Shown: positions 184 to 33,452, counted from the first letter of the stretch. The stretch is 35,458 nt of DNA from Candidatus Fermentibacteraceae bacterium (GCA_041686025.1 JAWLEP010000029.1:2776-38233), one strand, 5' to 3'. Numbers and translations are program-made. Notes: generated from the letters alone by a model not told the origin.

Positions 184-1161
184 TCAGCTCTTCTTGAGGA
201 CGACGTCGACGCCCAGCTCGGTAACGGGAGGGCTGGCGAACATGTCCGCGCAGGCATCGATCTGCTCGCGAAGCTCGACCAGCAGGCCGTCCTCCGAGGG
301 GATCGAGACGCCCTCCGGAGCGGTTGCGCGAATGCCGTCCTCCGTTGCCAGGTCGCAGGCGGTTCTGAGACGAAGGCCCGTTCTCAGAAAACGGCGGATC
401 TTGAAGAGGGCGAGGTTCACCAGGAGGTCGGTGGCGGTATCGCCCAGGTCGTAGCTGCGCAGCCGGGCGAGGTCGATGTTGAAGTAGGCCCTGATGTCGC
501 CGGCGGTGTACTCCGTCCTCGTATAGGGCACGTTGCTGTAGACGTCACGCTGCTCGGCTTCCGTCCGCAGCCGGCCCTGGGGGTCGAGGGGGTTGTTCTT
601 GACGCCGCCGGAGACCGCCTCGTTGACGTCGCTGGCCTCTATGAAAGCGGATACGGCCCTGGGGATCCTCATCCTAGCGTCTTTCTTTCCCTCCTTCTTG
701 ACGTTGGAGAGGAAGATACCGTGCAGTAAGGAATTCACGTCGTATTTGAAGAGCGTCTTCGCCAAACGGGTCCAGTCGATAAGCCCTGCGCTTCGATAGC
801 CAGCGTCCTCTAAAAACCTGTTAAGGAAGTCCTCTTGCGAGATGATGTAGGGCGAGTTGAGGCGGTGCGCCTCCAGCAGGGTGGTTGTCTTCACCTGGGC
901 GTCGCCCTCGAGGTTCGCGCGTACGTATGACAGGCCCTCCAGCTCGGGGATGATCTCCCCGTCGGGGGTCATCACCGCCGCCTCCAGCCTGTTGGCCATC
1001 GACTGCGAGGATTCCACCAGCAGCTTGCGGGTGCCGTCGGCCAGCTCGTAGGTGGCCGCGCCGAGCTCGGCGAAGCCGGTGGGCTGGAAGCGGTCTCCCT
1101 GGACGGGGCGGAGCTTCGCCTCGGCCAGCATCCTCGGAGCGTCGTTGAGCTTCTCGATCAT
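184..1161 (-). CDS. csb1: Type I-G CRISPR backbone protein Cas7 (Csb1)
   Basis: Motifs DRFQPTGF, LLVESSQSMANRLE, EAHRLNSPY, SGGVK, LRLRTACDL. ATG at 1161 overlaps the csx17 stop (ATGA) and has GGAGG upstream. Confidence 0.92.
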   Translation of the reverse strand: MIEKLNDAPRMLAEAKLRPVQGDRFQPTGFAELGAATYELADGTRKLLVESSQSMANRLEAAVMTPDGEIIPELEGLSYVRANLEGDAQVKTTTLLEAHRLNSPYIISQEDFLNRFLEDAGYRSAGLIDWTRLAKTLFKYDVNSLLHGIFLSNVKKEGKKDARMRIPRAVSAFIEASDVNEAVSGGVKNNPLDPQGRLRTEAEQRDVYSNVPYTRTEYTAGDIRAYFNIDLARLRSYDLGDTATDLLVNLALFKIRRFLRTGLRLRTACDLATEDGIRATAPEGVSIPSEDGLLVELREQIDACADMFASPPVTELGVDVVLKKS

Positions 1162-3479
1162 TCCTGAACCTCCTTCTCCTTGAGAACAAGTGACTTGAGC
1201 GTGTTCGTGTCCCAGACGGGGAAGAGCAGTGCGGCTGCGAGCCTCACCGGGTCGCAGTCGCATTCCCAGGCAAGCGAAAGGACCGGCAGCTCCGCCACGT
1301 GCCTGAGCCTGGCGGCGGCAAGGTCGCACGCCTCGGATACCCTGCCAGCAGCTGCCAGCCTTAGCACCCTTCCTTCCGCGCCTACCGGTGAGTCGTGGAT
1401 CCTGGGGGTCATCATCAGCTTAAGCAGCGCCCAGCTGCGGGAGATCGGCCTGGGCTCATCCTCCCCGGGCGGGCTGGTCCTCATGCCGGAGTCCCATCTG
1501 ACAAGCGTGAATCCGAAGAGCAGCTCCTCGATTGCGGTCTCGTCCACCAGGCCGTAGATGAAGGGCGAGACCTGACGCGATGAGACCTTGAGCATTGCGT
1601 CGAGAGGCAGGTTTCTCGCATCCAGCCTGCCCATCTCGAGAATTCGCCGGGAGAGCACGGAGATCATCCTTTCGGGCAGACTGGAACCTGTCCAGCACTG
1701 CTGCGAGTCCCCCCACTCCCAAGGGCGCCTTGGATCCACTCCCGATGTGTTGCTGCGGATCGGGCCGACTCCTCCCGTACCCCGGATCGAGGAGAGGGAG
1801 GCGGCCAGAGTCGCCTCCGGGCAGGCGGGGAGGCACTGCCGTACCCATTCCGGTGAAAGCCCCGCAAGGGGGCGGGAGAGGAATCCTTCCGCGCCGTGGT
1901 TCATTCTGGCCAGCCTCATCTCAAAGCGGCCCAGGGCGCGGACGAGTCTCGTGAAGGCGAGGGCAGATGGTCTCCGGCTGGTCTGGAACAGCTCCTCCTC
2001 TATCCTTCGCCTTGCCGTGGAGAGCGCTGCCGGGACATGGTCGCCGTAGCGACGGATGAAGCCGTCCATTCTCTGCAGTATGGGATCCAGCTCATCCAGA
2101 AGCGCAAGCTCAGGACGGTAAGCTACGTCTACCTCCCCGGCCGGCAGGGCCACGTAGCTCTTTCCCCTGCGTACGACGAATGCGTAGCGGGTGAAGCTGG
2201 AGAGGCCGCGGTCGACGCCCAGCTGGCCCAGCGCCCGGCAGAAGTCGATGCCGTTTCTGGCCTGCCTTCTGCCCAGGCTGCTGCGGCCCTCGGCGAACAG
2301 AAAGGCCACCTCACCCAGGGTAGCGGGATTCGACCAGGTGGGCAGCCAGGTCTCGGACTGTCCGTCATCCTGCTGGCTGTCGGAGGAGAAGCCCACGGGG
2401 CTGAAGTCGACGGTGAAGGGAAGGGAGGCTTCCTTCCAGCCGTCTGAGGTGCTGCGCTTCGTGGCCGAGGCGGCCAGCAGCAGCGCTCCCTCGAACACGA
2501 AGAGGTACTCCCAGGGATTGATCTTGAACTTCTTCGTCTCCACGTCTTCGCCCATGTTGTAGCCGCCTGCCCTGCCCGGGTCGAACTGGCCTATGGCCCA
2601 GGAGTCCAGGCCGTCGACGGGTGTGTTGACCAGGGTTGCCCTGAGCAGCCTCTGGGATCCTTCGTCCTCCCCGAGCAGCAGCTGGCTGGCAATGGCCATG
2701 TAGTTCCTGCTGAAGTCCAGGTTGCCGTCGTTGCCTCCCGTGCCCAGCAGTCGGAAGTAGGAGGGGGACTCGCTCGAGGTGATGGCAATGGCGGCGTCGA
2801 ACCAGCGCAGGGACTCCTCCGGGAGCCTTGCCCGACACGCGCCGAGGTTCTCCTTCAGCAGGTTGCGTCGATTCGTGGAGAGGGTTGTCACCCCCTTCTT
2901 GACCTTGCTCTTGAGCCCTTTCCAGAAGGGGGCATGGGATTCGTCCTCCTCCTCGATCCGGCCCGAGAGCAGCTCCATGACGTCCACCGAGGGAGCGTCG
3001 AGCTCCGGGTTCCCCGAGATGATTCCCTCGATGTCGTCCAGGTGGTTGTGGGCCTTTCCGATCTCGGACTTCGAACCCTCCGCGGCCAGTATGCGGAGCC
3101 GGTCCATGAAGTCCCCAAGGCTGCCCAGACCCATATCCAGCTCCGGCCATGTACGGACGCGCCGGATAACTTCCCGGTAGTCCCGGAAGCGGGGATCGTC
3201 GGATGCCATGATCCTGTCCATTCCCTCGCGGTTGTCGTTGGGCCAGAAACCGCTGCCTCCGTTCCAGGGGGATACTATCGGTGTAGGTGCGTAGCGGTTC
3301 AGGATGAAGTCGATGAGGCCGTCAAGGCTCATCTCCGTCTCCAGGACGAATGCCCCATCCTTCCAGAATCCGGCGGCGGCATGATCGGCCTGCTCGGCGG
3401 TGATCCTGAAGACGGCGAGGGCCTTGAGATAGCTTGCCAGGGGCTGGGTGGCACATCCCTCAAGCCTTATCCTGCTCAC
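1158..3479 (-). CDS. csx17: Type I-G large subunit Cas8g (Csx17)
   Basis: Motifs LEGC..PLASYLKAL, SPWNGGSGF, LLGTGGNDGNLDFS, NPWEYLFVFEG, ETWLPTW, LGVDRGL. GTG start at 3479 with GGAGGT RBS. Lies between cas3 and csb1. Confidence 0.9.
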   Translation of the reverse strand: MSRIRLEGCATQPLASYLKALAVFRITAEQADHAAAGFWKDGAFVLETEMSLDGLIDFILNRYAPTPIVSPWNGGSGFWPNDNREGMDRIMASDDPRFRDYREVIRRVRTWPELDMGLGSLGDFMDRLRILAAEGSKSEIGKAHNHLDDIEGIISGNPELDAPSVDVMELLSGRIEEEDESHAPFWKGLKSKVKKGVTTLSTNRRNLLKENLGACRARLPEESLRWFDAAIAITSSESPSYFRLLGTGGNDGNLDFSRNYMAIASQLLLGEDEGSQRLLRATLVNTPVDGLDSWAIGQFDPGRAGGYNMGEDVETKKFKINPWEYLFVFEGALLLAASATKRSTSDGWKEASLPFTVDFSPVGFSSDSQQDDGQSETWLPTWSNPATLGEVAFLFAEGRSSLGRRQARNGIDFCRALGQLGVDRGLSSFTRYAFVVRRGKSYVALPAGEVDVAYRPELALLDELDPILQRMDGFIRRYGDHVPAALSTARRRIEEELFQTSRRPSALAFTRLVRALGRFEMRLARMNHGAEGFLSRPLAGLSPEWVRQCLPACPEATLAASLSSIRGTGGVGPIRSNTSGVDPRRPWEWGDSQQCWTGSSLPERMISVLSRRILEMGRLDARNLPLDAMLKVSSRQVSPFIYGLVDETAIEELLFGFTLVRWDSGMRTSPPGEDEPRPISRSWALLKLMMTPRIHDSPVGAEGRVLRLAAAGRVSEACDLAAARLRHVAELPVLSLAWECDCDPVRLAAALLFPVWDTNTLKSLVLKEKEVQE

Positions 3480-5802
3480 GATCCACCTCCTTTCCCGCAG
3501 CGCTTGCCCGTTCATCGGCCACCTTTATCAGGGCTTCCAGGTATGCCAGTCTGAACGGTCCGAGGCTGTCTCTGAGGGAGATCATCCGCGAGAGCCAGCT
3601 GGCGCCCCGGTAGCCGCGGCCCAGTTCCATCAGCGACAGGTCGAGCAATGTGCGGGGCATCGTTACACCGCCTCCCAGATCCGTCTGCGGAAGCACATCC
3701 CCATCGTAGATGCCCCGGGCAAAGCGCGTCTCGGGATCGTCCGGGGGACGCTCGGTTGGAAGCGAGCGAATCGACAGCCTGACCTTCCCGTGGTGCGCGG
3801 CGGCAAGATACGCTTCCAGATCACTCATTCCACAGGCCAGAGCGGCCAGGCCGGATGCCAGCTCATGGCGGAAGCCCCTCCTGTCGTAGCGTGAGAGGGA
3901 AGGCCCCTTCGCCATTGATTCTCCGGGATTCCGCCCCAGTGCCTTCTGGAAGACTTCATGCGCCTTTCCGGCGTCGTGCCAGCGGGCCGCGGCGAGGAGG
4001 GCGCTGCGATGCTCCTCATCGATGAAGGGAAGCTGTTCAATAACGGACTCCAGCTCGCTGACCACCTGGTCGCTGTGCTCGGATACGGTCTGGAAGGGCG
4101 CCCTCGCATACGAGTCCGAGTCGTTGGAGTCCGAGACCTGTCCGGATGGGGGGAGGGGCGGTGCGGCCCTCCGGCCCTTGCCGGTCCATCCAAGATCGCT
4201 GTCGTAGCCGCCGGAGCTGCAGGGCAGAAGAACCGTCATTCCCGGCCTGAGCCGATGGGGACTGGCCCGTGTCCATGCCCCTTCCAGATAATCCCAGACC
4301 CAGCCCTGCCTCCTGCCCAGGAACTTCGAGAGATCGCCCACCGGTACCGAACACAGCTCTTCTGCGGAGGGGCGTTCCTCGCTCTCATCGGGCGGCTGTT
4401 CAATATCCCTCCAGAAGACCTGAAGATCGGTATCCTCTGTGTCCCTTATGAAACGGGATATGTCCAGGTCTGCCCCGGCCAGGTCGGGCGTTGTGTCGAA
4501 CAGCTCCAGGATGTCGCGCCTTCGGGGAATGTCGCCGGTCTTCGGCTTCCGCTCCACAGGCGGCAGGGACCGCGGCGACGCGTTGGAGATGGCGCGCAGC
4601 TTTTCTACAGAAGCTTCGATTTCTGCGGGCTCATAGGGCGCGAGACTCTTCGGCCTGGAGAGGTCCGGGGGAATCCAGAGAATGTGGGCTGCATTCGACT
4701 CTCCGTATCGATTGCACCTGCCGAAACGCTGAACCATGGATGGCCAGGGCGCGGTATCCGTAACCAGAAGCCTTGAGGTGATGTCCACTCCGGCCTCGAC
4801 AACCTGTGTGGAGACACAGATGCTTCCGGCGGGGCCGGGTTCGGACATGGCCCTGTCCATGGCGGCCGCCCTGTCCGGTGGACGGAACCTGGAGTGGAGA
4901 AGCACAGCTTCGGCATCCGGCTTGAGCTTCATGAGCGATTTGTAGATCCTGACCGCCCTCCGGACGGTGTTGACCACGCAGAGCGTTCGTGTTCCCGGTG
5001 TATGCCGGCTGAGAATCAGCTCGGCTTCAAGCCTCCCCTTTCCGTCAGGCATGAAGCCAGCCTCCTCAAGGGGCTTGTTTGCCTCTGCGCGCGGGCGTAT
5101 CGCGGGCGATGACCAGTCGGCCTCGGAAGGAGCAAGCAGATCGCTTTCCGGGGAGTGATCTATCGTTTTCAGCCACTCAGGCCGTACCGTGGCGCTCATC
5201 CAGAGGGTATGGGCGGGCCCGAAAACACCCATCTCGCTGCGAAAGGCCTGCAGCTGGGCGGAAGTGTCGAGGCCTGCGCCCATGAGCTGGACCTCGTCCA
5301 TGACCCAGAGCGTGTCGTTGTTGAGAAGGCCGAAGTGCAGGGGCCATCGGTAGCGGCTCATGGAGTATCCGCGGTTGAGCCCGCGGGAGAGGAGCATGTC
5401 CTGGGTGCCGACGATCATCGCCTCACCCTCGGGGGCCAGGTCCCATCGCGAGTCGACCTCGCCACCCATGAGCAGGCATACGGCAATACCCTTCCCGCCC
5501 GGCTGCTTCGCCAGCAGGCCGAGACGATCCAGCCAGCGCTCCATGGCCTGGCAGGTCTGCTCGGCCAGCACGCGCATTGGCAGACAGTACACAAGTCTCC
5601 TGGGAGTGGCGTCTCTGATGGGGTCAGCGGCGTATTTCCGGCGCCACAGCCATCCGAGGACGGCTGCCGCCGTCTTGCCCATGCCGGTGGGAACGGAGAT
5701 CGTCTCGGGCAGAGGGCTGGACCCGGCCAGCCTTCCCTGCCAGGGGAAGGGTCTGAAGCCTGTTGCTCTTTCGAAGAAGGTTGCGAAGTCCATTTCCGTC
5801 AT
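3460..5802 (-). CDS. cas3: CRISPR helicase-nuclease Cas3, type I-G architecture (SF2 helicase then C-terminal HD nuclease)
   Basis: Walker A PTGMGKT, DEVQ, SAT, HSRF, TQVVEAGVD, QRFGRCNR. C-terminal HD motifs WHDAGK, RHELAS, AHHGK, ADERAS. ATG at 5802 is preceded by GGAGG. Confidence 0.95.
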   Translation of the reverse strand: MTEMDFATFFERATGFRPFPWQGRLAGSSPLPETISVPTGMGKTAAAVLGWLWRRKYAADPIRDATPRRLVYCLPMRVLAEQTCQAMERWLDRLGLLAKQPGGKGIAVCLLMGGEVDSRWDLAPEGEAMIVGTQDMLLSRGLNRGYSMSRYRWPLHFGLLNNDTLWVMDEVQLMGAGLDTSAQLQAFRSEMGVFGPAHTLWMSATVRPEWLKTIDHSPESDLLAPSEADWSSPAIRPRAEANKPLEEAGFMPDGKGRLEAELILSRHTPGTRTLCVVNTVRRAVRIYKSLMKLKPDAEAVLLHSRFRPPDRAAAMDRAMSEPGPAGSICVSTQVVEAGVDITSRLLVTDTAPWPSMVQRFGRCNRYGESNAAHILWIPPDLSRPKSLAPYEPAEIEASVEKLRAISNASPRSLPPVERKPKTGDIPRRRDILELFDTTPDLAGADLDISRFIRDTEDTDLQVFWRDIEQPPDESEERPSAEELCSVPVGDLSKFLGRRQGWVWDYLEGAWTRASPHRLRPGMTVLLPCSSGGYDSDLGWTGKGRRAAPPLPPSGQVSDSNDSDSYARAPFQTVSEHSDQVVSELESVIEQLPFIDEEHRSALLAAARWHDAGKAHEVFQKALGRNPGESMAKGPSLSRYDRRGFRHELASGLAALACGMSDLEAYLAAAHHGKVRLSIRSLPTERPPDDPETRFARGIYDGDVLPQTDLGGGVTMPRTLLDLSLMELGRGYRGASWLSRMISLRDSLGPFRLAYLEALIKVADERASAAGKEVDREQDKA

Positions 5803-6113
5803 TCTGTCCTCCATTCGGAATGGATGTCGCCACGAGGGGAAACGCAGAAGGCGCGGCCCGGCAGGCGGGAATACCCGGGCCCATTTGCCGGAAGGCTGTT
5901 CTGAAGATGTACGGTGTGTGCGTTAGGCGGAATCGAGACCATTCTACCTCTCATCATTGCGCATTTATTCACTATTAGATACATGATCGGTCGATTCACC
6001 GTCAACGCTGGCCCTCTTTGCCTTGCCGAGGCCGCCCATCGCTCGAGAGGGCCCCAGTCGGATGAGAGACTCAATCCGCAGAAACGGAGAAGAGTCGAGC
6101 AAGACGGGTGCCA

Positions 6114-16657: not shown

Positions 16658-17278
16658 ATGTTCAGCTTCAGGGTGGAGTGCAGCATCAAGTGCCCGCGGT
16701 GCGACAGGCCCGTCTTCCTCAACGGCCCGGTGACCGCCACCCGATGCAGGTCGTGCCGAAGCGAGATAGAGATCCCCCGGGAGTACTGGGAGGGGATCCT
16801 GGAGGACGGCATACCCGAGATGAGGGACAGCGAGAAGGGCACCGGAACCGGGTCCACCATATTCGGCACCTTCAACACCAGCCTTACCCTGGCGCGGTTC
16901 GACCCCTACTGCGACAGCTGCAAGACCGACTTCACCGCCCCCTGGAGCCTCACCCCCGGGACGGACTACAAGTGCGGCGAGTGCGGCGAGGTCTACCCTG
17001 TGGACCCGCCCCCCGGCTGGATGTCGGAGAAGCTGGCGACGGTGGCCATGCTGGTCAACGCCGAGCTGGACGCGGACGGGGATGGGGACGCGGAGGAAAC
17101 CGTGTCCGAGCCGGTTGCCCTGGCCTGCCCGCAGTGCGGGGGCTGGCTGCAGGCCGACGGCAGCGACCGTCTGGTGAGCTGCCAGTACTGCGACGTGCAG
17201 GTCTACCTGCCCGACGACCTCTGGTTCAGGCTCCACCCGGTCCGCAGGAAGCGCCGCTGGTTCGTGGTCTGCCGCTAG
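16658..17278 (+). CDS. Hypothetical multi-Zn-ribbon protein
   Basis: Six CxxC motifs (CPRC, CRSC, CDSC, CGEC, CPQC, CQYC). Starts 2 nt after the upstream stop. Confidence 0.75.
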   Translation: MFSFRVECSIKCPRCDRPVFLNGPVTATRCRSCRSEIEIPREYWEGILEDGIPEMRDSEKGTGTGSTIFGTFNTSLTLARFDPYCDSCKTDFTAPWSLTPGTDYKCGECGEVYPVDPPPGWMSEKLATVAMLVNAELDADGDGDAEETVSEPVALACPQCGGWLQADGSDRLVSCQYCDVQVYLPDDLWFRLHPVRRKRRWFVVCR

Positions 17279-21662: not shown

Positions 21663-23717
21663 TCAGCGGCGCCGCAGCGCCAGGACCGCGCCGGGGACCG
21701 CCATGATCCCGGCAACGGCCAGCAGGGAGAGGGCGGCCCCCAGCAGGGGGAAGAGCACCAGGGGGAGCAGCACTCCGCCGGCGGCGCTTCCCGAAAGGTC
21801 GGCCATCTCCAGCAGCCCCACGTTTCTCCGTCCCCCTCCCGCCGCCTCCGCCGCCAGAGGGAACTGCGCCCCCGCTGCCGCTCCCAGGACCAGCAGCCCC
21901 GCCAGGGCGATTGCGGCCAGGGGCGCGGTGGTGAGGACCCCCCAGTCGTAGAGGGCGCAAACGGCCGCCAGCATCAGCACCGCGCCCAGGGCAACCGCGT
22001 GCACCCTGCCCAGCCCCGACATCCTGCCCCTCTCCCCCAGCCAGGCGCCAGCCGCCAGCCCCCCCATGGCGCAGGCGGAGACCAGGCCCACCAGCGAGTA
22101 GGAGTACCCCAGGGTGGACTGGATGATCAGTATCACCGCCGTCTCCGCCGATATCTCGCCCAGCCCGATGGAGGATAGGGAGAGGCACAGGGAGCGCCTG
22201 CCGCGGTGGATCATGGCTATTCCCAGCAGGAGGCCGCACACCCCCAGCAGCGCCCAGGGAGCGGGCCCCAGGCCGGACCTCCCTCCGGTGCGGACCCTCC
22301 ACAGCTCCCCCGCCGTCTCCACCGCCGAGGGTCTCAGGTCCCGGTTGGGCCTGGCGCTCACTCCGGAAAGCTGGTCGGCGAAGGCCGACAGCCGCCATTC
22401 GGAGAGCTCGAACTCCAGCGTTCCCGGGGTCAGCCAGACGGTCTCCGCGCCCGACTCCTCCAGAAGGCGTGCCAGCCGGTCTCCGCCCACCCGCAGGGAG
22501 TCCCGGCGGGAGAAGAGGAACAGCGCTCCGCCCAGGGGGATCACCCGGGCGGCGGAGAACCGCTGCCTGCCGGCGGCCATGACGGCCTCCACCAGCACGG
22601 CGTCCCGGGGCAGCATGCGGTTGCGGCCCACGTGGAAGCCGAAGCTCAGAACGCCCCCTTCGGAGAGCCTGCGGGAGGCAAGCTCCATGAGCTCTGCGGT
22701 GTAGAAGCGGTTGGCGGCCAGGGAGAGGGGCAGGCCGCCGTCGATGATCACCAGGTCGGCGTCATCCTCCATTCCCGACAGCCAGGCCCTTCCGTCCCCC
22801 TCCACCAGCGTGACCTCCCCGGGAAGACGGTCCTCGCCCACCAGGGCCCGGCCCGTGAGGGCCACCATCACCACCTCCTCCACTCCCGGCCAGTCCGCCA
22901 GCAGGGAGGCGGTCGCCGTGCTGTAGCCGATGTACACCACCCTGCGGGGGCCGGCCAGGAGGAGGGGCACCACCGCAGCGGTCTCGGATGTCTCGGGTGT
23001 GCCGGCGGAGCCCACCAGGACGCCGCCCAGGTAGACGGCGGGCTGTCCCCCCCGCGGGACCACGGAGACCTCCCCGTAGGCGGAGGGGAAGCTCCGCGCG
23101 TCTTCCCCGGGCAGGCTGGACTCCATGACCTCCTGCAGCCTGTCGGGAAGCCCGGAGAGGCCGATGCCCAGGGCGGCGGCGGCCAGGAGAGAGGCGGCCG
23201 GGACGGAGGCCGCGAGAAGACCGGCCCCGGCCAGTCCCAGCCCCGCCACCAGCATCCACGGCGTAAGCAGGTGAGGCGAGAGGAGCAGAAACGCAAGGCC
23301 GCCGGCCACCGCCCCCAGGGCCTCCAGCATGTAGGCCCGGGCGGCCCGGAGCAGCTCGAAGGGCTGGACGAAGACCAGGCCCGCCAGCATGCCGGAAGGC
23401 AGGACGCACAGGGAGGGCGGAAGGGACCCCGCCCGCAGCAGCACGACGGCCAGGGCGGCTGCCGGAACCAGGAGCCCCGCTCCCAGCCCCCAGCCGAGGC
23501 GGGGGCTTCGCAGCCGCGACCCCAATGCCGCGCCCAGCCCCGACCCCAGGAGCCACCCCGCCAGCAGCAGGCCGGTCTGGAGCTCCGCCAGCCGCTGGCC
23601 GTAGAGGCCCTCCCGCAGCAGCACCGACTGGCTGAAGACCGAGATCAGGCCTCCGGCGAGGGCGGCCATTCGGGGATGGATTCGCCGGCCTCCCGTGCCG
23701 CTAGCCTCCCTCTTCAC
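21663..23717 (-). CDS. Membrane-fused spermidine-synthase-like protein (TM block, methyltransferase-fold domain, TM block), degenerate
   Basis: Hydrophobic N- and C-terminal blocks flank SAYGEV, DGRAWL, DLVIID, NRFYTAE, GGVL, NRDLRP. Start uncertain (23717 GTG or 23669 ATG). Confidence 0.72.
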   Translation of the reverse strand: MKREASGTGGRRIHPRMAALAGGLISVFSQSVLLREGLYGQRLAELQTGLLLAGWLLGSGLGAALGSRLRSPRLGWGLGAGLLVPAAALAVVLLRAGSLPPSLCVLPSGMLAGLVFVQPFELLRAARAYMLEALGAVAGGLAFLLLSPHLLTPWMLVAGLGLAGAGLLAASVPAASLLAAAALGIGLSGLPDRLQEVMESSLPGEDARSFPSAYGEVSVVPRGGQPAVYLGGVLVGSAGTPETSETAAVVPLLLAGPRRVVYIGYSTATASLLADWPGVEEVVMVALTGRALVGEDRLPGEVTLVEGDGRAWLSGMEDDADLVIIDGGLPLSLAANRFYTAELMELASRRLSEGGVLSFGFHVGRNRMLPRDAVLVEAVMAAGRQRFSAARVIPLGGALFLFSRRDSLRVGGDRLARLLEESGAETVWLTPGTLEFELSEWRLSAFADQLSGVSARPNRDLRPSAVETAGELWRVRTGGRSGLGPAPWALLGVCGLLLGIAMIHRGRRSLCLSLSSIGLGEISAETAVILIIQSTLGYSYSLVGLVSACAMGGLAAGAWLGERGRMSGLGRVHAVALGAVLMLAAVCALYDWGVLTTAPLAAIALAGLLVLGAAAGAQFPLAAEAAGGGRRNVGLLEMADLSGSAAGGVLLPLVLFPLLGAALSLLAVAGIMAVPGAVLALRRR

Positions 23718-24195
23718 GGGACCCCGAGTCCCTCCGGGCCCGCGGGCCGGCGGTCTCCAGCCACCCGCACCTGATGCCCTCTTTCCTGTCGCGGTCGGTG
23801 TAGGGCTTGATGTCCAGCAGGGGCGTTCCGTCGGCCATGTCCACCCCCCGCACGTGGAGGAACCTCCCGTCCCTGCCCAGCAGCGTGACCACGGTCAGGG
23901 CCAGGGGATTCACCCGGTAGGGGCTGCGGGTGGCGAACAGCCCCCGCGGCGGGGGTATGGAGTGCCTGGTGGGACAGCAGGTGAGCTCGCAGCCCTCGGA
24001 CCTGTGAAACAGCCAGATGACGAAGAGGTGCGAGAAGCCCTCCACGTCCTGCAGGGCCTTCTCGTATCGGCTGCAGATCTCAAGGCGGCCCTCCGCCTCC
24101 TCCGGCTCCTCCACGTCCCGGGGTCCGGAGAAGGGCGTGTGGGCCACGCCTATGGGGACCAGCCGGGGAGAGTCTCCGCCCCGCTTCGCCGTCAT
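23701..24195 (-). CDS. tsaA: TsaA/TrmO-family SAM-binding protein (tRNA m6t6A37 methyltransferase-like)
   Basis: PIGVAHTPF, GFSHLFVIWLFH, GLFATRSPYRVNPL, DMADGTPLLDIKPY. ATGA overlap with the upstream gene. Confidence 0.9.
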   Translation of the reverse strand: MTAKRGGDSPRLVPIGVAHTPFSGPRDVEEPEEAEGRLEICSRYEKALQDVEGFSHLFVIWLFHRSEGCELTCCPTRHSIPPPRGLFATRSPYRVNPLALTVVTLLGRDGRFLHVRGVDMADGTPLLDIKPYTDRDRKEGIRCGWLETAGPRARRDSGSREEGG

Positions 24196-25694
24196 TGCGC
24201 GCCGGGGGAGAAGACCTGGGCGCCGAAGCGGAACAGAAGCGCCCGGTCCGGGTCGTAGCCGTCCGGCGGAAGGCCGGCCTTCATGGCCAGGTTGCGGACG
24301 TACTCCCTGCGGTCCCAGCCCTGCTCCACCGGGACCTGGGGCAGCAGGACCCCGGACCTGCCGCCCTGGATCAGGTACAGGCCGTCCTCTCCCACCTCCA
24401 CCTGCGAGGTGTCCTCCACCAGCCGCAGCGGAGACAGCACCGATATCTCCAGCCGGATCTCCTCCAGCTCGTCCCGGGAGATGGGGGGGAAGCGGGGATC
24501 CTCATCGGCCGCCTGCCGCGCCATCCGGGCCACCGCCTCTCCCAGGGGCTGGACCGGGCGTATGGAGCCGATGCAGCCCCGGAGCTCGCCCCCCCGGCGG
24601 TAGGTAACGAAGGCTCCCCGGGGAAGCTGCAGCTCGGGGTCGGCCGGCTCGTACTCGCCGGGGGGTTCGTCCGCCGCCGCCCTCTCCAGCTCTGCGCGGG
24701 CCATCTCGCACAGCCTCTGCCGGGTCTGCGCGGAGATCTCATCGCCGGAGTCACCCGGCGGCACGGTGGTGACAATGGCGGCATAGCCCACGGTGCGGCC
24801 CGGATCGCCGCCGCGGTCGGCGCTGTTGGACAGCTCCAGCAGCCGGCTGCTCCATCCGCGGTGCAGCCGGTTGTAGTAGAGGGCGGCGGTCATGGGAAGC
24901 CTGCCGCAGGCCAGCGTGGAGACCCCCGGACGGGATGCCCCCGCCGTGAACGACGCGAACTCCTCCGGGTCCCCCTCCAGGTAGCTCTCCACGGTCCCCG
25001 AGTCCACCGTCTCGGCCACCTCCGCGGTCGGGTAGTGAGAGAGGTCCGAGCTGGCCAGCACCAGAACCCGTCTGTCGGCTCCCTCGGCGTACATCAGCTC
25101 CGCCAGGAAGGCCAGGTCGTCGGTGGGGCAGCCGCCTATGAGGACGGGCACCACCGAGAAGTCCCCGGGCAGGACCCTCTTCAGGAAGGGAAGCTGCACC
25201 TCTATGGAGTGCTCCCGGACGTGGGGGTCCCGCCCCAGCTCCGCGGCCGGATGAGCCTCGGCCAGGCGCCGGGCGGCGGCCCGGGCCACCGGGACGCTCC
25301 CCAGAGGCGTGGCGCAGGAGTCTGCGTCCAGCACCGAGATGCCCCTCAGCGGGTAGCTGTGGGCGGGGGCCAGGATGTAGACCAGGTCGAGGCTGTCGCC
25401 GGAGAGCGCCGCGTAGACCTCGGCTGCGGCGGGAGCGGAGAAGCGGTACCCGGCGTGGGGGACCACGGCCGAGATTATCCGTCCCTCCCCGACCTCGGCA
25501 TCGGTCATGGCCAGGTACCCGTCCACCGCCACGGCCAGCTCGTCTGCGCCCCCGGGGTAGAACTGCCCGGCAAAGGCGGCGGGCCTGGTCCAGGCAGGCG
25601 GGGAGGGGGACGACACCTGGTCGGGGTCTGGGTCGCTGTCCCCTCCGGCGCAGCAGGCCAGCAGGATCAGTCCCAGGGCCGCGGTGCGCATCAT
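24192..25694 (-). CDS. amrB: AmmeMemoRadiSam protein B-A fusion (MEMO1 plus AMMECR1) with lipoprotein signal
   Basis: MEMO1 motifs RPAAFAGQFYP, PHAGY, EHSIEVQLPF, SSDLSHY, VGYAA. AMMECR1 motifs GAFVT, LRGCIG, DPRFPP, EISVLS, GVLLPQV, KAGL. N-terminus MMRTAALGLILLAC. Confidence 0.92.
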   Translation of the reverse strand: MMRTAALGLILLACCAGGDSDPDPDQVSSPSPPAWTRPAAFAGQFYPGGADELAVAVDGYLAMTDAEVGEGRIISAVVPHAGYRFSAPAAAEVYAALSGDSLDLVYILAPAHSYPLRGISVLDADSCATPLGSVPVARAAARRLAEAHPAAELGRDPHVREHSIEVQLPFLKRVLPGDFSVVPVLIGGCPTDDLAFLAELMYAEGADRRVLVLASSDLSHYPTAEVAETVDSGTVESYLEGDPEEFASFTAGASRPGVSTLACGRLPMTAALYYNRLHRGWSSRLLELSNSADRGGDPGRTVGYAAIVTTVPPGDSGDEISAQTRQRLCEMARAELERAAADEPPGEYEPADPELQLPRGAFVTYRRGGELRGCIGSIRPVQPLGEAVARMARQAADEDPRFPPISRDELEEIRLEISVLSPLRLVEDTSQVEVGEDGLYLIQGGRSGVLLPQVPVEQGWDRREYVRNLAMKAGLPPDGYDPDRALLFRFGAQVFSPGAQ

Positions 25695-25873
25695 CCCGCC
25701 AGCTTCCTGTAGTGGCGGGCCCTCCTTCTGGAGAGGCGGCCCTCCCGGCCCGGGTCTTCGCCCCCCGTCCGCAGGGGCCACAGGGCCCCCAGTCCCGCCA
25801 GCCCGGCCAGGCCGGCGGCGGCCCTTCTCAGGAATCTCCTTCTGTCCATTCGGCCTGAACTCTTCGGTCTCAT
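25691..25873 (-). CDS. 60-aa twin-arginine-signal small protein
   Basis: MRPKSSGRMDRRRFLRRAAAGLAGLAGLGALWPL...LSRRRARHYRKLAG. ATGA overlaps at both ends (amrS stop and amrB start). Confidence 0.75.
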   Translation of the reverse strand: MRPKSSGRMDRRRFLRRAAAGLAGLAGLGALWPLRTGGEDPGREGRLSRRRARHYRKLAG

Positions 25874-26847
25874 TGCCAAACCCCCGGTATCTCACGGCCG
25901 CACTCGGCGCATCTTCGGTCTTCGATTCCGTTCTCGACGATGCGGAAGCGGTCCCTCCGCACCACCGCCCGTCCGCATTCGGGGCAGAAGGTGTCGTCCC
26001 CCCGGCTGGTGACCACGTTGCCCACGTATACGTACCGCAGGCCGGCACCGGACGCGATCTCACCCGCCCGCTCCAGCGTCTGCAGCGGCGTGGGCGGCCG
26101 GTCGGTCATCCTGTAGGTGGGGAAGAACCTGCTGAAGTGCAGGGGCACGTCGGGCCCCAGGTTGTCCGCGATCCAGGAGCAGAGCTCCTCCAGGTCCTCC
26201 TCGGAGTCGTTCAGCCCCGGCACCACCAGGTTGGTTACCTCCAGCCAGACGCCCATCTCCCGCAGGACCTCCAGCGTGTTCAGCACCGGCCCCACGGTTC
26301 CGTGGCACACCGTGCGGTAGTAGTCGTCGCGGATGCTCTTGAGGTCAACGTTGACCGCGTCGATAAGGGGGGCCAGCTCCCGCAGCGGCCCCTCGTTTAT
26401 GTAGCCGGCGGTGACCATGATGTTTCCCATCCCCGCCTCCCGGGCCAGCCGGGCGGTGTCCTCCACGTACTCGTAGAAGACGATGGGCTCGGTGTAGGTA
26501 TAGGCCACGGATGAGCAGCCGGTCTCCTCGGCCCGGGAGACCACCTCTCCGGGCTCCATGCGGTAGGGGGGCACGTCCTCCGGAGCGGCCTGGGATATCT
26601 CCCAGTTCTGGCAGAACTCGCAGCCCAGGTTGCAGCCGGCGGTGGCTATGGAGAAGGTCTTCGTCCCGGGCAGGTAGTGGTAAACGGGCTTCTTCTCCAC
26701 CGGATCCACGTGGGCGGCCACCGGCCGGCCGTAGACCAGGCTCACCAGCTCGCCGTCCAGGTTCATCCTTACCCGGCAGGTGCCCCGCTGGCCCTCCTCC
26801 AGCCGGCAGGTGTGGGGACAGAGGAGGCACTGAACGCTTCCCGACAT
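25870..26847 (-). CDS. amrS: AmmeMemoRadiSam radical SAM enzyme
   Basis: CLLCPHTC, GTCRVR, DPVEKKP, CNLGCEFCQNWEISQ (CxxxCxxC), YTYTEP, NVDLK, HFSRFFP, YVYVGNV, terminal CPEC/CAEC. Confidence 0.95.
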   Translation of the reverse strand: MSGSVQCLLCPHTCRLEEGQRGTCRVRMNLDGELVSLVYGRPVAAHVDPVEKKPVYHYLPGTKTFSIATAGCNLGCEFCQNWEISQAAPEDVPPYRMEPGEVVSRAEETGCSSVAYTYTEPIVFYEYVEDTARLAREAGMGNIMVTAGYINEGPLRELAPLIDAVNVDLKSIRDDYYRTVCHGTVGPVLNTLEVLREMGVWLEVTNLVVPGLNDSEEDLEELCSWIADNLGPDVPLHFSRFFPTYRMTDRPPTPLQTLERAGEIASGAGLRYVYVGNVVTSRGDDTFCPECGRAVVRRDRFRIVENGIEDRRCAECGREIPGVWQ

Positions 26848-26848
26848 G

Positions 26849-27121
26849 CTACCGCCGCTCCTCCCCTGTGGAGTCCTCCTCCAGCTCGATCGACCACTTC
26901 GCAGGATGCCGGGTGAGAAAGCCCCGGCGGATAAGCTCCCGGAACCGCTCCATGTCCACGAAGGAGGGCGGCCTCACCGCCACCGTCCGGGCCGAGTCGG
27001 CCCTGGAGACTATCTCCCAGAGGATACCCGTCCGGCCGGTGCCCGTTCCCCCTTCGCCGGGGTCCCGGGCAGCGGCGGCCACGGTGAGCGCCAGGGCCAT
27101 TGGCAACAGCGTACGTTTCAT
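26849..27121 (-). CDS. 90-aa secreted hypothetical protein, first gene of the amr operon or split amrS N-terminus
   Basis: C-terminal part of track ORF 26849..27892. Sec-type signal MKRTLLPMALALTVAAAA; stop is 1 nt before the amrS ATG. Confidence 0.6.
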   Translation of the reverse strand: MKRTLLPMALALTVAAAARDPGEGGTGTGRTGILWEIVSRADSARTVAVRPPSFVDMERFRELIRRGFLTRHPAKWSIELEEDSTGEERR

Positions 27122-27175: not shown

Positions 27176-27952
27176 ATGGCAAGGTCTTCCTCCATAGAGG
27201 CTTACGTCACGCTGAGGTTCTACGCCGAGCTGGGCGACTTCCTGCCTGAGGAGAAGCGGGGAAGGGCCTTTCGCCGACCGCTGCCCGCCGGAGCAACGGT
27301 GAAGCACGTCATCGAGTCCGCCGGCGTGCCCCACACCGAGGTGGAGCTGGTGCTCCGCAACGGCGAGTCGGTGGGGTTCGGGGACCGTCCCCGGCCCGGC
27401 GACCGGCTGAGCGTCTACCCCGTCTTCGAGAGCCTGGACGTCTCGCCCCTGGTGCGTGTGAGGGAGGAGCCCCTGAGGAAGACGCGCTTCGTCCTGGACG
27501 TTCACCTGGGCAAGCTGGCGCTGATACTCCGGCTTCTGGGCTTCGACGCCCTGTTCCCCGGCGACTGCGACGACGGGGAGCTGGCCCGCATCTCCGCCGA
27601 GACCGGCAGGATACTGCTCACCAGGGACATCGGCCTGCTGAAGCGCAGCGCGGTTACCCACGGCTGCTACATCCGCTCCGACGACCCCACCGAGCAGGCG
27701 GGGGAGGTGCTGGACCGGCTGGACCTCCGCGGCCGCGTGGAGCCCTTTCGCCGCTGCGCCCGCTGCGGCGGAGAGCTGCAGGAGGTGGACAAGGAGGAGA
27801 TACTCCATCGGCTGGAGCCCCTGACGAAGAGGTACTACCACCAGTTTCGGACGTGTCCCGACTGCGGCAGGATCTACTGGAAGGGCAGCCACTACCCGGC
27901 CCTGAAGAAGCTCCTGGAAGACCTGGGTGTAGGCAACGACGACGGCGACTGA
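27176..27952 (+). CDS. Ubiquitin-like plus Mut7-C (PIN-fold) RNase domain protein
   Basis: LRFYAELGDFLP, GVPHTEVEL, FVLDVHLGKLA..LRLLGFD, RILLTRD, RCARC, CPDCGRIYWKGSHY. GGAGG RBS. Confidence 0.92.
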   Translation: MARSSSIEAYVTLRFYAELGDFLPEEKRGRAFRRPLPAGATVKHVIESAGVPHTEVELVLRNGESVGFGDRPRPGDRLSVYPVFESLDVSPLVRVREEPLRKTRFVLDVHLGKLALILRLLGFDALFPGDCDDGELARISAETGRILLTRDIGLLKRSAVTHGCYIRSDDPTEQAGEVLDRLDLRGRVEPFRRCARCGGELQEVDKEEILHRLEPLTKRYYHQFRTCPDCGRIYWKGSHYPALKKLLEDLGVGNDDGD

Positions 27953-28558: not shown

Positions 28559-29833
28559 TCAGGCGCGGCCCTCCAGCTCCTCCTCCACCTGTTTCATCAC
28601 CCTGTCGAAGTTGAGCTCCGCCGGGCTGCCGGAGGCCGCCAGCAGGGCCTTGGTCAGATCCTCGGTGGTTGATTCCAGCGCCTCCATGAAGCGCCACCGG
28701 GCGAACTGCCTGCGGGGGTCCTCGGCGTCTGTACCGTAGAGCAGGTCGATCAGCTCCTCGATCATCTGATCCATCTCGTAGAGCTTCAGGTGCAGCAGCT
28801 CGTGGACCACCAGCTCCTCGATGAACGAGTCGTCCACCTCGTGATGCACCATAAGCACCGCCATGCGGTTGGAGGTGTCGATCTTGATGTCCCCCCTCTT
28901 CCGCCAGTCCTGCTGCACTACCGTGTGCCGGATGTCCCAGTCCTGCAGGCGGAGTATCCCCGACCACCTCTGGATCAGGGCTTCCGGCTTGATTCCTTCG
29001 GGCTTCATGGCTTCCCTTTCCGTGCGGGCCGGGTCCCGGGTCCGACTCCGTGACGGCCTCTGCCCCGAGGCCGCTCTCTCCACGGATGTCGACGGGGCCA
29101 GCGTCCGTTCGCCCCGGGGCAGCATCTCCGATATCGCATACGCCGTGACAAAGACCAGGGGCAGGTGGATGAAGTAGGCCGGCAGGGCGTGGCGGCCCAG
29201 GTAACGCAGCGGCCGGGACCTGCGCCTGCCGGCCCCGGTCATGTCCGGCCGGCCGCCGCGGACCATGATCCTGCCGGCGAACATGCCCAGGAACACAACG
29301 CCTATCCATGGAAGAACCGGGTAGATGTCGATGGTGTACACCGGGTGGTGCAGGCCCAGCCATACCAGCCAGGGGAAGTCGAAGCTCATGCTCTGCAGCT
29401 GGATTCCCGCCGCCAGGAGCAGGACGCCCAGCAGGAGGTTGAGCCAGGTGAAGCGGATGAAGGGGAAGGCCAGGACGATGGCCAGGCCTATGAAGTGAAG
29501 AATGCCGAAAAAGACGAAGCCCTCCGGCTTGAACACCAGTGAGCCCAAAGTGATGATCAGGCCGTAGCCGAAGATCCGACCGCCCCTCGACAGGTACTTG
29601 CCGGCGGAGGCCGAGGGGGAATGGCTCAGGACCAGGCTCACCCCCACCAGGGAGATGAACAGCCCGCCGGTGGCCTTCTGGAAGAGGTTCCAGAAGCCGT
29701 CGAACGGAGCGGGTGCGTCCACGCCGAAGTAGGCCAGGCTCCACTGCAGATGGAACGCCACCATCATGAGCACCGCGACACCGCGCAGAAGGTCTATCTG
29801 CGGTACGCGGCGCCCTCTGCGTTCATCGTTCAT
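28559..29833 (-). CDS. DUF1624 (HGSNAT-like) membrane protein in frame with a C-terminal HExxH domain; possibly two genes
   Basis: IDLLRGVAVLMMVAFH, FGILHFIG, DIYPVLPW, LGRHALPAYFIH, then a polar linker and a domain with VVHELLH. In-frame internal ATG at 29008 with a purine-rich RBS-like sequence. Confidence 0.75.
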   Translation of the reverse strand: MNDERRGRRVPQIDLLRGVAVLMMVAFHLQWSLAYFGVDAPAPFDGFWNLFQKATGGLFISLVGVSLVLSHSPSASAGKYLSRGGRIFGYGLIITLGSLVFKPEGFVFFGILHFIGLAIVLAFPFIRFTWLNLLLGVLLLAAGIQLQSMSFDFPWLVWLGLHHPVYTIDIYPVLPWIGVVFLGMFAGRIMVRGGRPDMTGAGRRRSRPLRYLGRHALPAYFIHLPLVFVTAYAISEMLPRGERTLAPSTSVERAASGQRPSRSRTRDPARTEREAMKPEGIKPEALIQRWSGILRLQDWDIRHTVVQQDWRKRGDIKIDTSNRMAVLMVHHEVDDSFIEELVVHELLHLKLYEMDQMIEELIDLLYGTDAEDPRRQFARWRFMEALESTTEDLTKALLAASGSPAELNFDRVMKQVEEELEGRA

Positions 29834-29956
29834 GCAGCTTCCCGTCCAGGCTCGGGGTGATGACTTCCGCAATCAATATCGTTATCCAAGACCAGGCAGC
29901 AAATGGAATTCCGGCGGATCCTCACGGTTCCGGCGATGAGCAGGGAGGAAACAAAG

Positions 29957-32230: not shown

Positions 32231-32293
32231 GGGCCCGGCCACGCCCTTGGGGCGGGCCGGGCCCCGACCAACCCGCGGGGAGGGACCGCGGGT
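32231..32293 (-). terminator. Tandem GC-rich hairpins after the encapsulin gene
   Basis: acccgcgg/ccgcgggt (32271-32293) and gggcccggcc-a-cgccc/gggcg-ggccgggccc (32231-32264). Confidence 0.55.
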
Positions 32294-33084
32294 CAGCCTC
32301 CTATCGCTATCACCGCCGCCGGCTCCAGTACCCGGAAGGTGAAGGCCTCCGTCAGGTAAAGGGTAACCGATTCGCCGGAGTGTCCCTCGTAGCCGATGGA
32401 GAAGTCGTGGCCCAGGGTGAGCTCCATGTCTCCGCCCCGGATGGAGACCATGAGCGCTCCCTCCAGCTGGGGGCTGTAGTAGAGCGGACCCTCCAGCTGC
32501 TCGCGGATCTTCTTCAGAAGCGGATATCCCCGACTGATGGAGTTGATCTCCAGCCAGGTGTCGCGGCCCACCATCAGCGCGTACGGCCCCTCGATCGAGG
32601 CGTCTATGAAGGCCGCCTTCCCGTCCGCCACGGTGCGGCGCATCCCGTCGGCATCCTCGGGAGCCGGCAGCGTGGTGTCGGCCGCATCGAAGAGGCCCTC
32701 TATCCCGGCCCTCTCCAGTCCGCTGTAGATTGCCCTGTCCTCGAAGGCAGCCGCTTCTGCCGCGGCTTCCTCCAGAGGCTCCAGGTCGGCGTCCTCCGCT
32801 CCCCGGACCACGTTGTCCAGCTCCCATACGTTCAGCTGGAAGGGAACCCGCGTCTCCACCAGCGGCATCACCTTTCGCAGCCCGTAGCCGATACCGCCGT
32901 CGGTGTCCTCCGCCACCTCCAGGCGGCCCAGGTTCACCGCAGCATGCTCCCTACCCAGCGGTCCGGCCACGTCCACGAACCACCTCGCGGAGAGGTGGTT
33001 CTTCAGCACGAGTCTCGCCTGCTCGTCTATCTCCTCCCAGGCCTCGTCCGTTATCGGGGCCAGTCCTCTCTTCAGAATGTCCAT
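32293..33084 (-). CDS. Family 1 encapsulin shell protein (Linocin M18 family)
   Basis: MDILKRGLAPITDEAWEEID, ARWFVDVAGPLG, WELDN..RG, EDRAIY.G, RGGDMEL.LG.D.SIGY, EAFTFRV. Confidence 0.96.
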   Translation of the reverse strand: MDILKRGLAPITDEAWEEIDEQARLVLKNHLSARWFVDVAGPLGREHAAVNLGRLEVAEDTDGGIGYGLRKVMPLVETRVPFQLNVWELDNVVRGAEDADLEPLEEAAAEAAAFEDRAIYSGLERAGIEGLFDAADTTLPAPEDADGMRRTVADGKAAFIDASIEGPYALMVGRDTWLEINSISRGYPLLKKIREQLEGPLYYSPQLEGALMVSIRGGDMELTLGHDFSIGYEGHSGESVTLYLTEAFTFRVLEPAAVIAIGG

Positions 33085-33101
33085 GTCCGCCTCTCCGGTA
33101 T

Positions 33102-33452
33102 CTATCTCAGGCCGCCTATTCCCAGGCTGCCGTCATCGTTCTCTCCGCCACCTTCTTCCTCGTCCTCGTCCTCCAGCTCGGTAATCGGCCGGTCGGTGAA
33201 GAGGTAGGTCCTCAGGTTCTCGTCCCAGGCTGGCATCCTCCTGCGCAGCCACTCGATGGCCATGCAGGCGTGCTCCACCTCCTCGTCGCGGTTGTGCGCC
33301 AGCACGTCCCGCAGGCCGTCGTCGGAGGCCGTGGCCACCCGCTGGTGGTACCAGTCGATGGCCTCCACCTCCTCCTTCAGGCTCACCAGGGCCCTGATGA
33401 TGTCCCTGTCGCTCTGCTCAAGCTCCTCCACCGGCTCGTGGTACTGCGCCAT
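33102..33452 (-). CDS. Encapsulated ferritin (EncFtn/Flp) cargo
   Basis: YHEP, SLKEEVEAIDWYHQR, HNRDEEVEHA, EWLRR, YLFT, acidic linker and C-terminal targeting peptide DGSLGIGGLR. Confidence 0.96.
   Translation of the reverse strand: MAQYHEPVEELEQSDRDIIRALVSLKEEVEAIDWYHQRVATASDDGLRDVLAHNRDEEVEHACMAIEWLRRRMPAWDENLRTYLFTDRPITELEDEDEEEGGGENDDGSLGIGGLR

What the first reader, a model, noticed from the sequence alone, without database searches (positions are those of the whole stretch)
21663..27121. Six-gene, translationally coupled AmmeMemoRadiSam operon that appears built for export
Seen: small Sec-signal ORF, amrS, Tat peptide, amrB-amrA fusion, tsaA and a membrane spermidine-synthase-like gene, joined by a 1-nt gap, three consecutive ATGA overlaps and a 17-nt overlap. 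Three products carry export signals and one is polytopic. Known: the AMMECR1/MEMO1/radical SAM trio has no established function and is usually proposed to modify nucleic acids in the cytoplasm. Inference: this is an envelope-associated variant with two extra SAM-binding-fold partners, possibly an undescribed modification or SAM-derived metabolite pathway.
Basis: partly seen in the sequence, partly recalled or inferred. Interest (0 to 1): 0.8.

Follow-up and report, generated by a model that had tools for sequence, protein, structure and literature searches.

The report
Exported radical-SAM operon with detached signal
This operon encodes the unexplained Memo/AMMECR1/radical-SAM enzyme trio in a form predicted to work outside the cell membrane: the iron-sulfur enzyme lacks its first beta-strand and any export signal, and two tiny neighbouring proteins carry that strand, one likely ferrying the folded enzyme out and the other likely docking it there.

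Summary
The six genes and the 1-nt and three ATGA junctions are real; the 17-nt overlap depends on a doubtful GTG start. Five genes form a conserved unit (12 of 34 relatives in the order). tsaA is a genus-level passenger (2 of 103 loci), and the spermidine-synthase-like domain lacks the aminopropyltransferase motifs (0 of 42). The Tat peptide and the upstream small protein each end in a match to it. A stand-alone Tat ORF follows 55 of 62 headless AmrS genes and 0 of 40 strand-bearing ones. The small protein's motif is elsewhere the tail of a permease-flavin-FeS fusion. Best reading (0.55): the peptide likely carries folded AmrS out through Tat, where it would dock beside a lipoprotein AmrB-A and a 14-helix permease. 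The scan noted this system before on other DNA. I found no paper on it but could not read Burroughs 2019.

The parts
26849..27121 (-). 90-aa exported partner ('docking tail'): short Sec-type signal, then a helix-Gly-strand motif that matches the first strand missing from AmrS; in other phyla the same motif ends a permease-FMN-FeS fusion
   Evidence: top 0.64% of 11,957 background segments; 14 of 41 genomes, always just upstream of headless amrS
25870..26847 (-). AmrS radical SAM enzyme, 325 aa, headless: starts six residues before the first CxxC and lacks both the EAxYY strand and a signal peptide
   Evidence: TIGR04337 406 bits, match begins at profile position 10; CxxxCxxC at 72; alignments
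25691..25873 (-). 60-aa Tat peptide: twin-arginine signal, then a short mature part ending in a match to the AmrS first strand and a C-terminal Gly
   Evidence: TIGR01409 above cut-off; strand score top 0.11%; such ORFs follow 55 of 62 headless and 0 of 40 strand-bearing amrS
24192..25694 (-). AmrB (Memo)-AmrA (AMMECR1) fusion, 500 aa, with a lipoprotein-type signal; Memo motifs and the AMMECR1 RGCIG and DPRF motifs intact
23701..24195 (-). TsaA/TrmO-type protein, 164 aa; likely a passenger inserted in this genus
   Evidence: TIGR00104 103 bits; 2 of 103 loci; only copy found in the genome
21663..23669 (-). 668-aa membrane protein (684 aa from the GTG at 23717): two related 6-helix bundles, each with one extra helix, around a degenerate spermidine-synthase-fold domain predicted to face outward

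Best explanation
The operon encodes a version of the AmrS/AmrB/AmrA system predicted to work outside the cytoplasmic membrane, in which the radical SAM enzyme lacks its first beta-strand and a signal peptide, likely binds the 60-residue Tat peptide by accepting that strand from it, and would be carried folded through the Tat pore. Steps: (1) shown: AmrS is headless and both small proteins end in a match to the missing strand. (2) inferred: AmrS gets its [4Fe-4S] cluster in the cytoplasm, binds the peptide and hitchhikes out. (3) inferred: outside, the exported small protein supplies the same strand and docks AmrS; in other phyla this tail sits on the permease and a flavin/FeS electron conduit. 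(4) inferred: AmrB-A is a lipoprotein on the outer face. (5) inferred: the 14-helix protein is a permease with an outward nucleoside-binding cap that would supply SAM or take back 5'-deoxyadenosine and methionine. (6) weakly inferred (about 0.25): the substrate is an adenosine-type small molecule or envelope component handed on to the Memo metal site and the AMMECR1 cysteine, not cytoplasmic RNA. tsaA is likely a passenger.
For: Strand-bearing AmrS proteins have KEAxxYxKL before the first CxxC. A model of one (pLDDT 94) places that segment as ordered strands next to the CxxC strand. A stand-alone Tat ORF follows 55 of 62 headless loci; 2 more have it fused to AmrB-A and 5 cannot be judged. It follows 0 of 40 strand-bearing loci, 36 of them with room. 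The docking-tail profile hits 19 of 38 headless loci not used to build it and 0 of 40 strand-bearing loci at E<0.01. In whole genomes it hits 14 of 41, each time directly upstream of a headless amrS; 6 of the 14 were not training rows. Of 99 longer homologues of the tail, 98 carry PF12801; in 99 of 99 the motif follows a membrane helix. FMN-binding plus PF12801 proteins are described as extracytosolic electron conduits (PMC8238504, passages). They lie beside 21 of 62 headless, 3 of 20 leader-bearing and 0 of 20 leaderless amrS. In a quick tree, headless AmrS lie among leader-bearing ones, apart from leaderless ones. Lys/Arg alternation over the loops puts the spermidine-synthase-fold domain outside. 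TatC is present.
Against: No binding, export or activity is shown. 31 of 52 Tat peptides (Planctomycetota, Verrucomicrobiota and others) do not score in the top 5% for the strand. Profile-profile comparison finds the strand only weakly for the tail (probability 1.5%, E 0.034) and not at all for the Tat set. Only 12 of 52 peptides match TIGR01409 at E<=1, and many are very basic. The long forms of the tail are never AmrS proteins, so the small protein is not shown to be a detached AmrS N-terminus. No flavin/FeS conduit lies in this operon or in the 20 regions from relatives, and the genome's one FMN-binding gene is on another contig, so the electron source here is open. The window's cap domain has lost an Asp kept in 35 of 42 homologues. 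Positive-inside support for the tail is 60 of 99, with 16 against and 23 equal, and the stretch before helix 8 is basic though predicted outside. Some leaderless AmrS in Bacteroidales sit beside AmrB-A with hydrophobic N-termini. The loci are related, and four pairs are near-duplicates.
Confidence: 0.55

Rival explanations
1. The Tat peptide is the substrate: AmrS, a structural relative of glycyl-radical activating enzymes, makes a radical at the peptide's C-terminal Gly, and the modified peptide is exported, as with a ribosomally made, modified peptide.
For: C-terminal Gly in 52 of 54 peptides, with all four codons and all three stops, and in 120 of 120 listed database homologues (these were found with a profile that holds the Gly). 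The top fold and sequence hits of AmrS are pyruvate formate-lyase activating enzyme. Radical SAM maturation of an exported protein in the cytoplasm has precedent (PMC13128918, passages).
Against: The peptide occurs only where AmrS lacks the strand (0 of 40 strand-bearing loci), although 11 of 20 leader-bearing loci keep the same membrane partner. It is fused to AmrB-A with no free Gly in L063 and L066 and ends in Val in G001. The same Gly follows the strand in several intact AmrS proteins. In 17 of 17 Fermentibacterota loci the last codon is tied to an ATGA overlap.
Confidence: 0.15
2. AmrS stays in the cytoplasm, held at the inner face of the membrane by the peptide acting as an uncleaved anchor; only AmrB-A and the small protein are outside, and the permease passes an intermediate between the two sides.
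For: SAM and low-potential reductants are cytoplasmic (general knowledge). There is no conduit in this operon. Weak Tat-model scores in 40 of 52 peptides.
Against: The RRxF motif is nearly invariant. The second strand donor is predicted to be outside and co-occurs strictly with headless AmrS. Sister AmrS proteins carry fused Tat or Sec-type leaders.
Confidence: 0.17
3. All six products form one SAM-derived metabolite pathway in which TsaA methylates and the membrane protein transfers an aminopropyl group.
For: tsaA is joined by an ATGA overlap. The membrane protein's domain has the spermidine synthase fold.
Against: tsaA is in 2 of 103 loci; it is on other contigs in 7 operon carriers and not found in 3. 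It has no export signal. GGG[DE]G and DxxD are each found in 0 of 42 homologues.
Confidence: 0.07
4. The small ORFs are pieces of a frameshifted or misassembled amrS gene.
For: The small ORF ends 1 nt before amrS.
Against: The same split is found in 12 relatives and several other phyla. Contigs of a roughly 94% identical relative have no gap at these junctions. The Tat peptide lies downstream of amrS, where no frameshift could join it.
Confidence: 0.01

Closest known systems
AmmeMemoRadiSam system (NCBIfam TIGR04335, TIGR04336, TIGR04337; AMMECR1-dioxygenase-radical SAM neighbourhood of Balaji and Aravind 2007, PMC2034487)
   Same: All three components score above cut-off, with catalytic motifs intact and the known B-A fusion.
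   Different: AmrS is headless; AmrB-A has a lipoprotein-type signal; two small strand-bearing proteins and a 14-helix membrane protein are added. The passages read propose RNA base modification and say nothing of export.
Tat hitchhiker systems (NiFe hydrogenases, PMC10924467; the small gamma subunit of Burkholderia FAD glucose dehydrogenase, PMC6719666; PaoABC, PMC4273604)
   Same: A cofactor-loaded enzyme with no signal beside a small partner that carries the twin-arginine signal.
   Different: Here the carrier is little more than a signal plus about 25-30 residues that match the passenger's own missing strand, and a second exported protein carries the same strand. Export is predicted only.
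NapH/NosR-like flavinylated electron conduits (PF04205 + PF12801; PMC8238504)
   Same: In other phyla the small protein's motif and the membrane protein are fused to such a conduit.
   Different: No conduit lies in this operon. The main-text passages read do not mention radical SAM or spermidine-synthase partners (supplement not read).
Polyamine aminopropyltransferase (SpeE) and membrane-fused SpeE-like proteins (PRK03612)
   Same: Fold of the central domain; weak hit to PRK03612.
   Different: Both catalytic motifs are absent; the domain is predicted to face outward between two 6-helix repeats.

Membership tests
AmmeMemoRadiSam system | AmrS, AmrB and AmrA above NCBIfam cut-offs and clustered | tested here: met
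   406/220, 221/26 and 164/99 bits
AmmeMemoRadiSam system | CxxxCxxC in AmrS; RGChG and DxRa in AmrA (PMC2034487); Memo metal motifs (recalled) | tested here: met
   for the AmrA motifs
AmmeMemoRadiSam system | First strand (EAxYY) on the AmrS chain, as in other members | tested here: not met
   match starts at profile position 10; alignments
AmmeMemoRadiSam system | Proposed nucleic-acid base modification | not testable with these tools
   no activity assay; the family has no solved structure in the sequence search
Tat hitchhiker pair | Twin-arginine signal on the partner, none on the passenger, TatC in the genome | tested here: met
   only 12 of 52 homologous peptides match TIGR01409
Tat hitchhiker pair | Complex of partner and passenger, and Tat-dependent export | not testable with these tools
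Polyamine aminopropyltransferase | Spermidine synthase fold | tested here: met
   profile E 1.7e-35; Foldseek E 1.2e-9; 28 of 42 members hit PF01564
Polyamine aminopropyltransferase | GGG[DE]G and DxxD catalytic motifs (recalled) | tested here: not met
   0 of 42 for each
Major facilitator superfamily | Two related 6-helix bundles and MFS sequence or fold match | tested here: inconclusive
   internal repeat 96%, E 1e-9; MFS_1 in 7 of 42 members, not in the window's own protein; no MFS among the listed fold hits
TsaA/TrmO | TIGR00104 above cut-off | tested here: met
   103 against 93 bits; tRNA methylation not tested
Radical-SAM-modified peptide (RiPP) precursor | Precursor present wherever the maturase acts; modification of the core | tested here: inconclusive
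   conserved C-terminal Gly but absent beside strand-bearing AmrS; modification not testable

The most novel reading that the evidence does not exclude
A radical SAM enzyme works outside the cytoplasm and gets there by donor-strand exchange: a free-standing Tat signal peptide completes the enzyme's fold, carries it across the membrane and hands it to a second strand donor on or near the SAM permease and electron conduit. This would be both extracytoplasmic radical SAM chemistry and a signal peptide acting in trans.
Probability: 0.4. Interest if true: 0.9.

Novelty: new variant of a known kind. Interest (0 to 1): 0.72.

Why it matters
Radical SAM enzymes need SAM, an oxygen-sensitive cluster and a strong reductant, and are taken to be cytoplasmic (general knowledge); my ten searches found no exported one. 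A multi-phylum branch with export signals, a permease and often an electron conduit would overturn that. It would also argue against RNA modification as the only role of the Memo/AMMECR1 trio, whose human homologues lack a known reaction. The split design is simple to test, and a 60-residue signal that works in trans could be a tool for exporting folded iron-sulfur proteins.

Tried and rejected
Complex prediction of AmrS with the Tat peptide was not available, so there is no result either way. The wide structural search of the membrane model never ran; the Foldseek list showed only spermidine synthases. Transcription: four RNA-labelled runs were held as contigs only; the best contig runs on across the convergent neighbouring gene and is DNA-like, and the others give scattered short pieces, so no co-transcription was shown. 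The promoter and terminator scan found 0 sites. Profile-profile comparison of the Tat set with strand-bearing AmrS failed. The strand score of the small-protein set (20 of 24 in the top 5%) is circular, because the set was picked by a motif pattern; I rely instead. The ESM Atlas gave no hit for the small protein and PF01564 clusters for the membrane protein. The careful tree did not finish; the quick tree (87 of 103 rows; partial, cut, frameshifted and duplicate rows left out) needs 2 changes for 'headless', so a single origin is neither shown nor excluded. TatC is in 39 of 41 genomes and does not separate carriers from non-carriers. Rejected: frameshift artefact; tsaA as a core partner; SpeE catalysis; the small protein as a detached AmrS N-terminus (its long forms are conduit tails).

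Full report
Observation. The six minus-strand ORFs are real, with GC3 of 0.80-0.91 in frame. They are a 90-aa small protein, AmrS (TIGR04337, 406 bits), a 60-aa Tat peptide (TIGR01409, just above cut-off), an AmrB-AmrA fusion, TsaA and a membrane protein. The 1-nt gap and three ATGA overlaps are as described. The 17-nt overlap needs the GTG at 23717; homologues align from about the ATG at 23669, which gives a 31-nt gap, and G001 has an opposite-strand gene in that junction. The closest named AmrS relatives are Ca. Aegiribacteria and Fermentibacterales, so the organism is likely Ca. Fermentibacterota. The genome also has a leaderless amrB-amrA pair, a leaderless amrS, and a leader-bearing amrS beside a second membrane gene. 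The window's operon is thus a specialised extra copy.

Conservation. Four pairs are near-duplicates and many loci are kin. The order small-amrS-Tat-amrBA-membrane gene is kept in 12 of 34 relatives of the same order, in three families; two are cut by contig ends and one lies on two contigs. tsaA lies within 2 of 103 loci, the window and the same-genus G001. It is the only tsaA found in this genome, lies on other contigs in 7 operon carriers and was not found in 3. It is likely a passenger.

The split. Other AmrS proteins begin with KEAxxYxKL before the first CxxC, often behind a Tat or Sec-type leader. In a model of one such protein (pLDDT 94) the segment forms ordered strands beside the CxxC strand. 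The window's AmrS starts six residues before that CxxC. Of the 103 loci, 62 are headless, 40 bear the strand and 1 is partial; three loci that the pattern called headless were moved by eye. A stand-alone Tat ORF follows 54 headless genes by script and one more by eye. In two loci it is fused to the AmrB-A N-terminus, and five cannot be judged. None of the 40 strand-bearing genes has one (36 with room). Against 11,957 background segments, the window's Tat tail scores in the top 0.11% and the small protein's tail in the top 0.64% for the AmrS strand. Against this, 31 of 52 Tat peptides do not reach the top 5%, profile comparison finds the strand weakly for the tail and not for the Tat set, and only 12 of 52 peptides match TIGR01409. 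The peptides end in Gly in 52 of 54 cases, with every codon and stop. A database search gave 295 relatives; the named ones among the 120 listed are called hypothetical. Contigs of a close relative have no gap at the split junctions.

The small protein. Its motif profile hits 19 of 38 headless loci outside the training set and 0 of 40 strand-bearing loci at E<0.01. In whole genomes it hits 14 of 41, once each and directly upstream of a headless amrS; the other 27 have best AmrS matches of 48% identity or less, and I did not inspect all of their N-termini. Of 99 longer homologues, 98 carry PF12801 and none is listed with the radical SAM family (the profile included such tails). They are mostly the membrane protein fused to FMN-binding and FeS domains, with the motif at the very end behind a last membrane helix (99 of 99; Lys/Arg bias favours outside in 60, against in 16, equal in 23). 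Proteins with these two domains are described as extracytosolic electron conduits (PMC8238504). The small protein is therefore best read as a detached docking tail, not as a piece of AmrS. Here it has a short, probably cleavable signal. No conduit lies in this operon or in the relatives' regions.

The other parts. AmrB-A has a Cys after a hydrophobic stretch in all 21 Fermentibacterota copies (18 by pattern, 3 by eye) and intact motifs. The membrane protein models as 7 helices, a soluble domain and 7 helices (pLDDT 93). The two 6-helix bundles are related (96%, E 1e-9), and Lys/Arg alternation puts the soluble domain outside, apart from a basic stretch before helix 8. The domain has the spermidine synthase fold but neither catalytic motif (recalled motifs; 0 of 42 each), and it is more degenerate here than in most homologues. 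MFS membership is inconclusive (7 of 42). The gene lies beside 39 of 62 headless, 11 of 20 leader-bearing and 0 of 20 leaderless amrS; conduits lie beside 21, 3 and 0 (leaders judged by eye, loci often cut short). In a quick tree, headless AmrS lie among leader-bearing ones, apart from leaderless ones.

Mechanism. Most likely (0.55), AmrS is loaded with its cluster inside, takes the strand from the Tat peptide, is carried out folded, and docks on the exported tail beside lipoprotein AmrB-A and a permease that moves SAM or its products. The anatomy and co-occurrence are shown; binding, export, topology and transport are inferred. The substrate is a guess (an adenosine-type small molecule or envelope component, about 0.25). 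Rivals: AmrS held at the inner face (0.17); the peptide as substrate through its C-terminal Gly, since the AmrS fold is closest to pyruvate formate-lyase activating enzyme (0.15); a six-enzyme pathway (0.07); artefact (0.01).

Literature. Ten searches found no description of an exported or split form. Seen as passages: PMC2034487, PMC7159879, PMC13673990 (0 occurrences of 'radical SAM'), PMC6719666, PMC8238504 (supplement not read), PMC13128918 (its radical SAM enzymes are placed in the cytoplasm) and PMC10924467. PMC4273604 was seen as a listing with the start of its abstract. Burroughs et al. 2019, the main comparative paper on Memo-AMMECR1 systems, is not held and may describe these forms. 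The library lacks most subscription papers.

Earlier notes of this scan. 98 findings in at least 92 genomes share the key words, and several give the same split reading. My reading was written down first. One note is marked as having partly fallen, without saying which part; it prompted the checks. These notes are not independent support.

Verdict: a new variant of a known kind; interest 0.72.

Noticed in passing
G000:C18:43800-47100 (outside the window): A second amrS with a fused Sec-type leader and intact first strand, directly followed by a second copy of the membrane gene; the genome thus holds split, fused-leader and leaderless forms.
   Followed up: partly
L063:7050-8630 and L066:6628-8208: The Tat peptide with its strand is fused in front of the AmrB-A lipoprotein signal, a natural fusion that shows the module is mobile.
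   Followed up: partly
window 27182-27952 (+): Mut7-C RNase gene divergent from the operon; also beside it in G001, G006, G028 and G032.
   Followed up: no
L031:4040-4702 (+): In G001 an opposite-strand gene for a probably exported protein lies between tsaA and the membrane gene.
   Followed up: no
window 184-5814 (-): CRISPR-associated genes: Cas_GSU0053 and a Cas3 helicase with a C-terminal HD domain, recalled as typical of type I-G.
   Followed up: no
window 32293-33452 (-): Encapsulin shell gene (Linocin_M18) with an encapsulated-ferritin-like cargo gene upstream.
   Followed up: no
window 28559-29872 (-): HGSNAT-type membrane acyltransferase domain that runs on into a soluble part with a weak HExxH-family hit; possibly two genes joined.
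   Followed up: no
L102, L109, L122 (AmrS N-termini): Tat-leader AmrS proteins of Acidobacteriota and Eisenbacteria have a CxxCH-containing insert between the first strand and the first CxxC.
   Followed up: no
window 16658-17278 (+): 206-aa Cys-rich protein with several CxxC pairs and only sub-cut-off zinc-ribbon hits.
   Followed up: no
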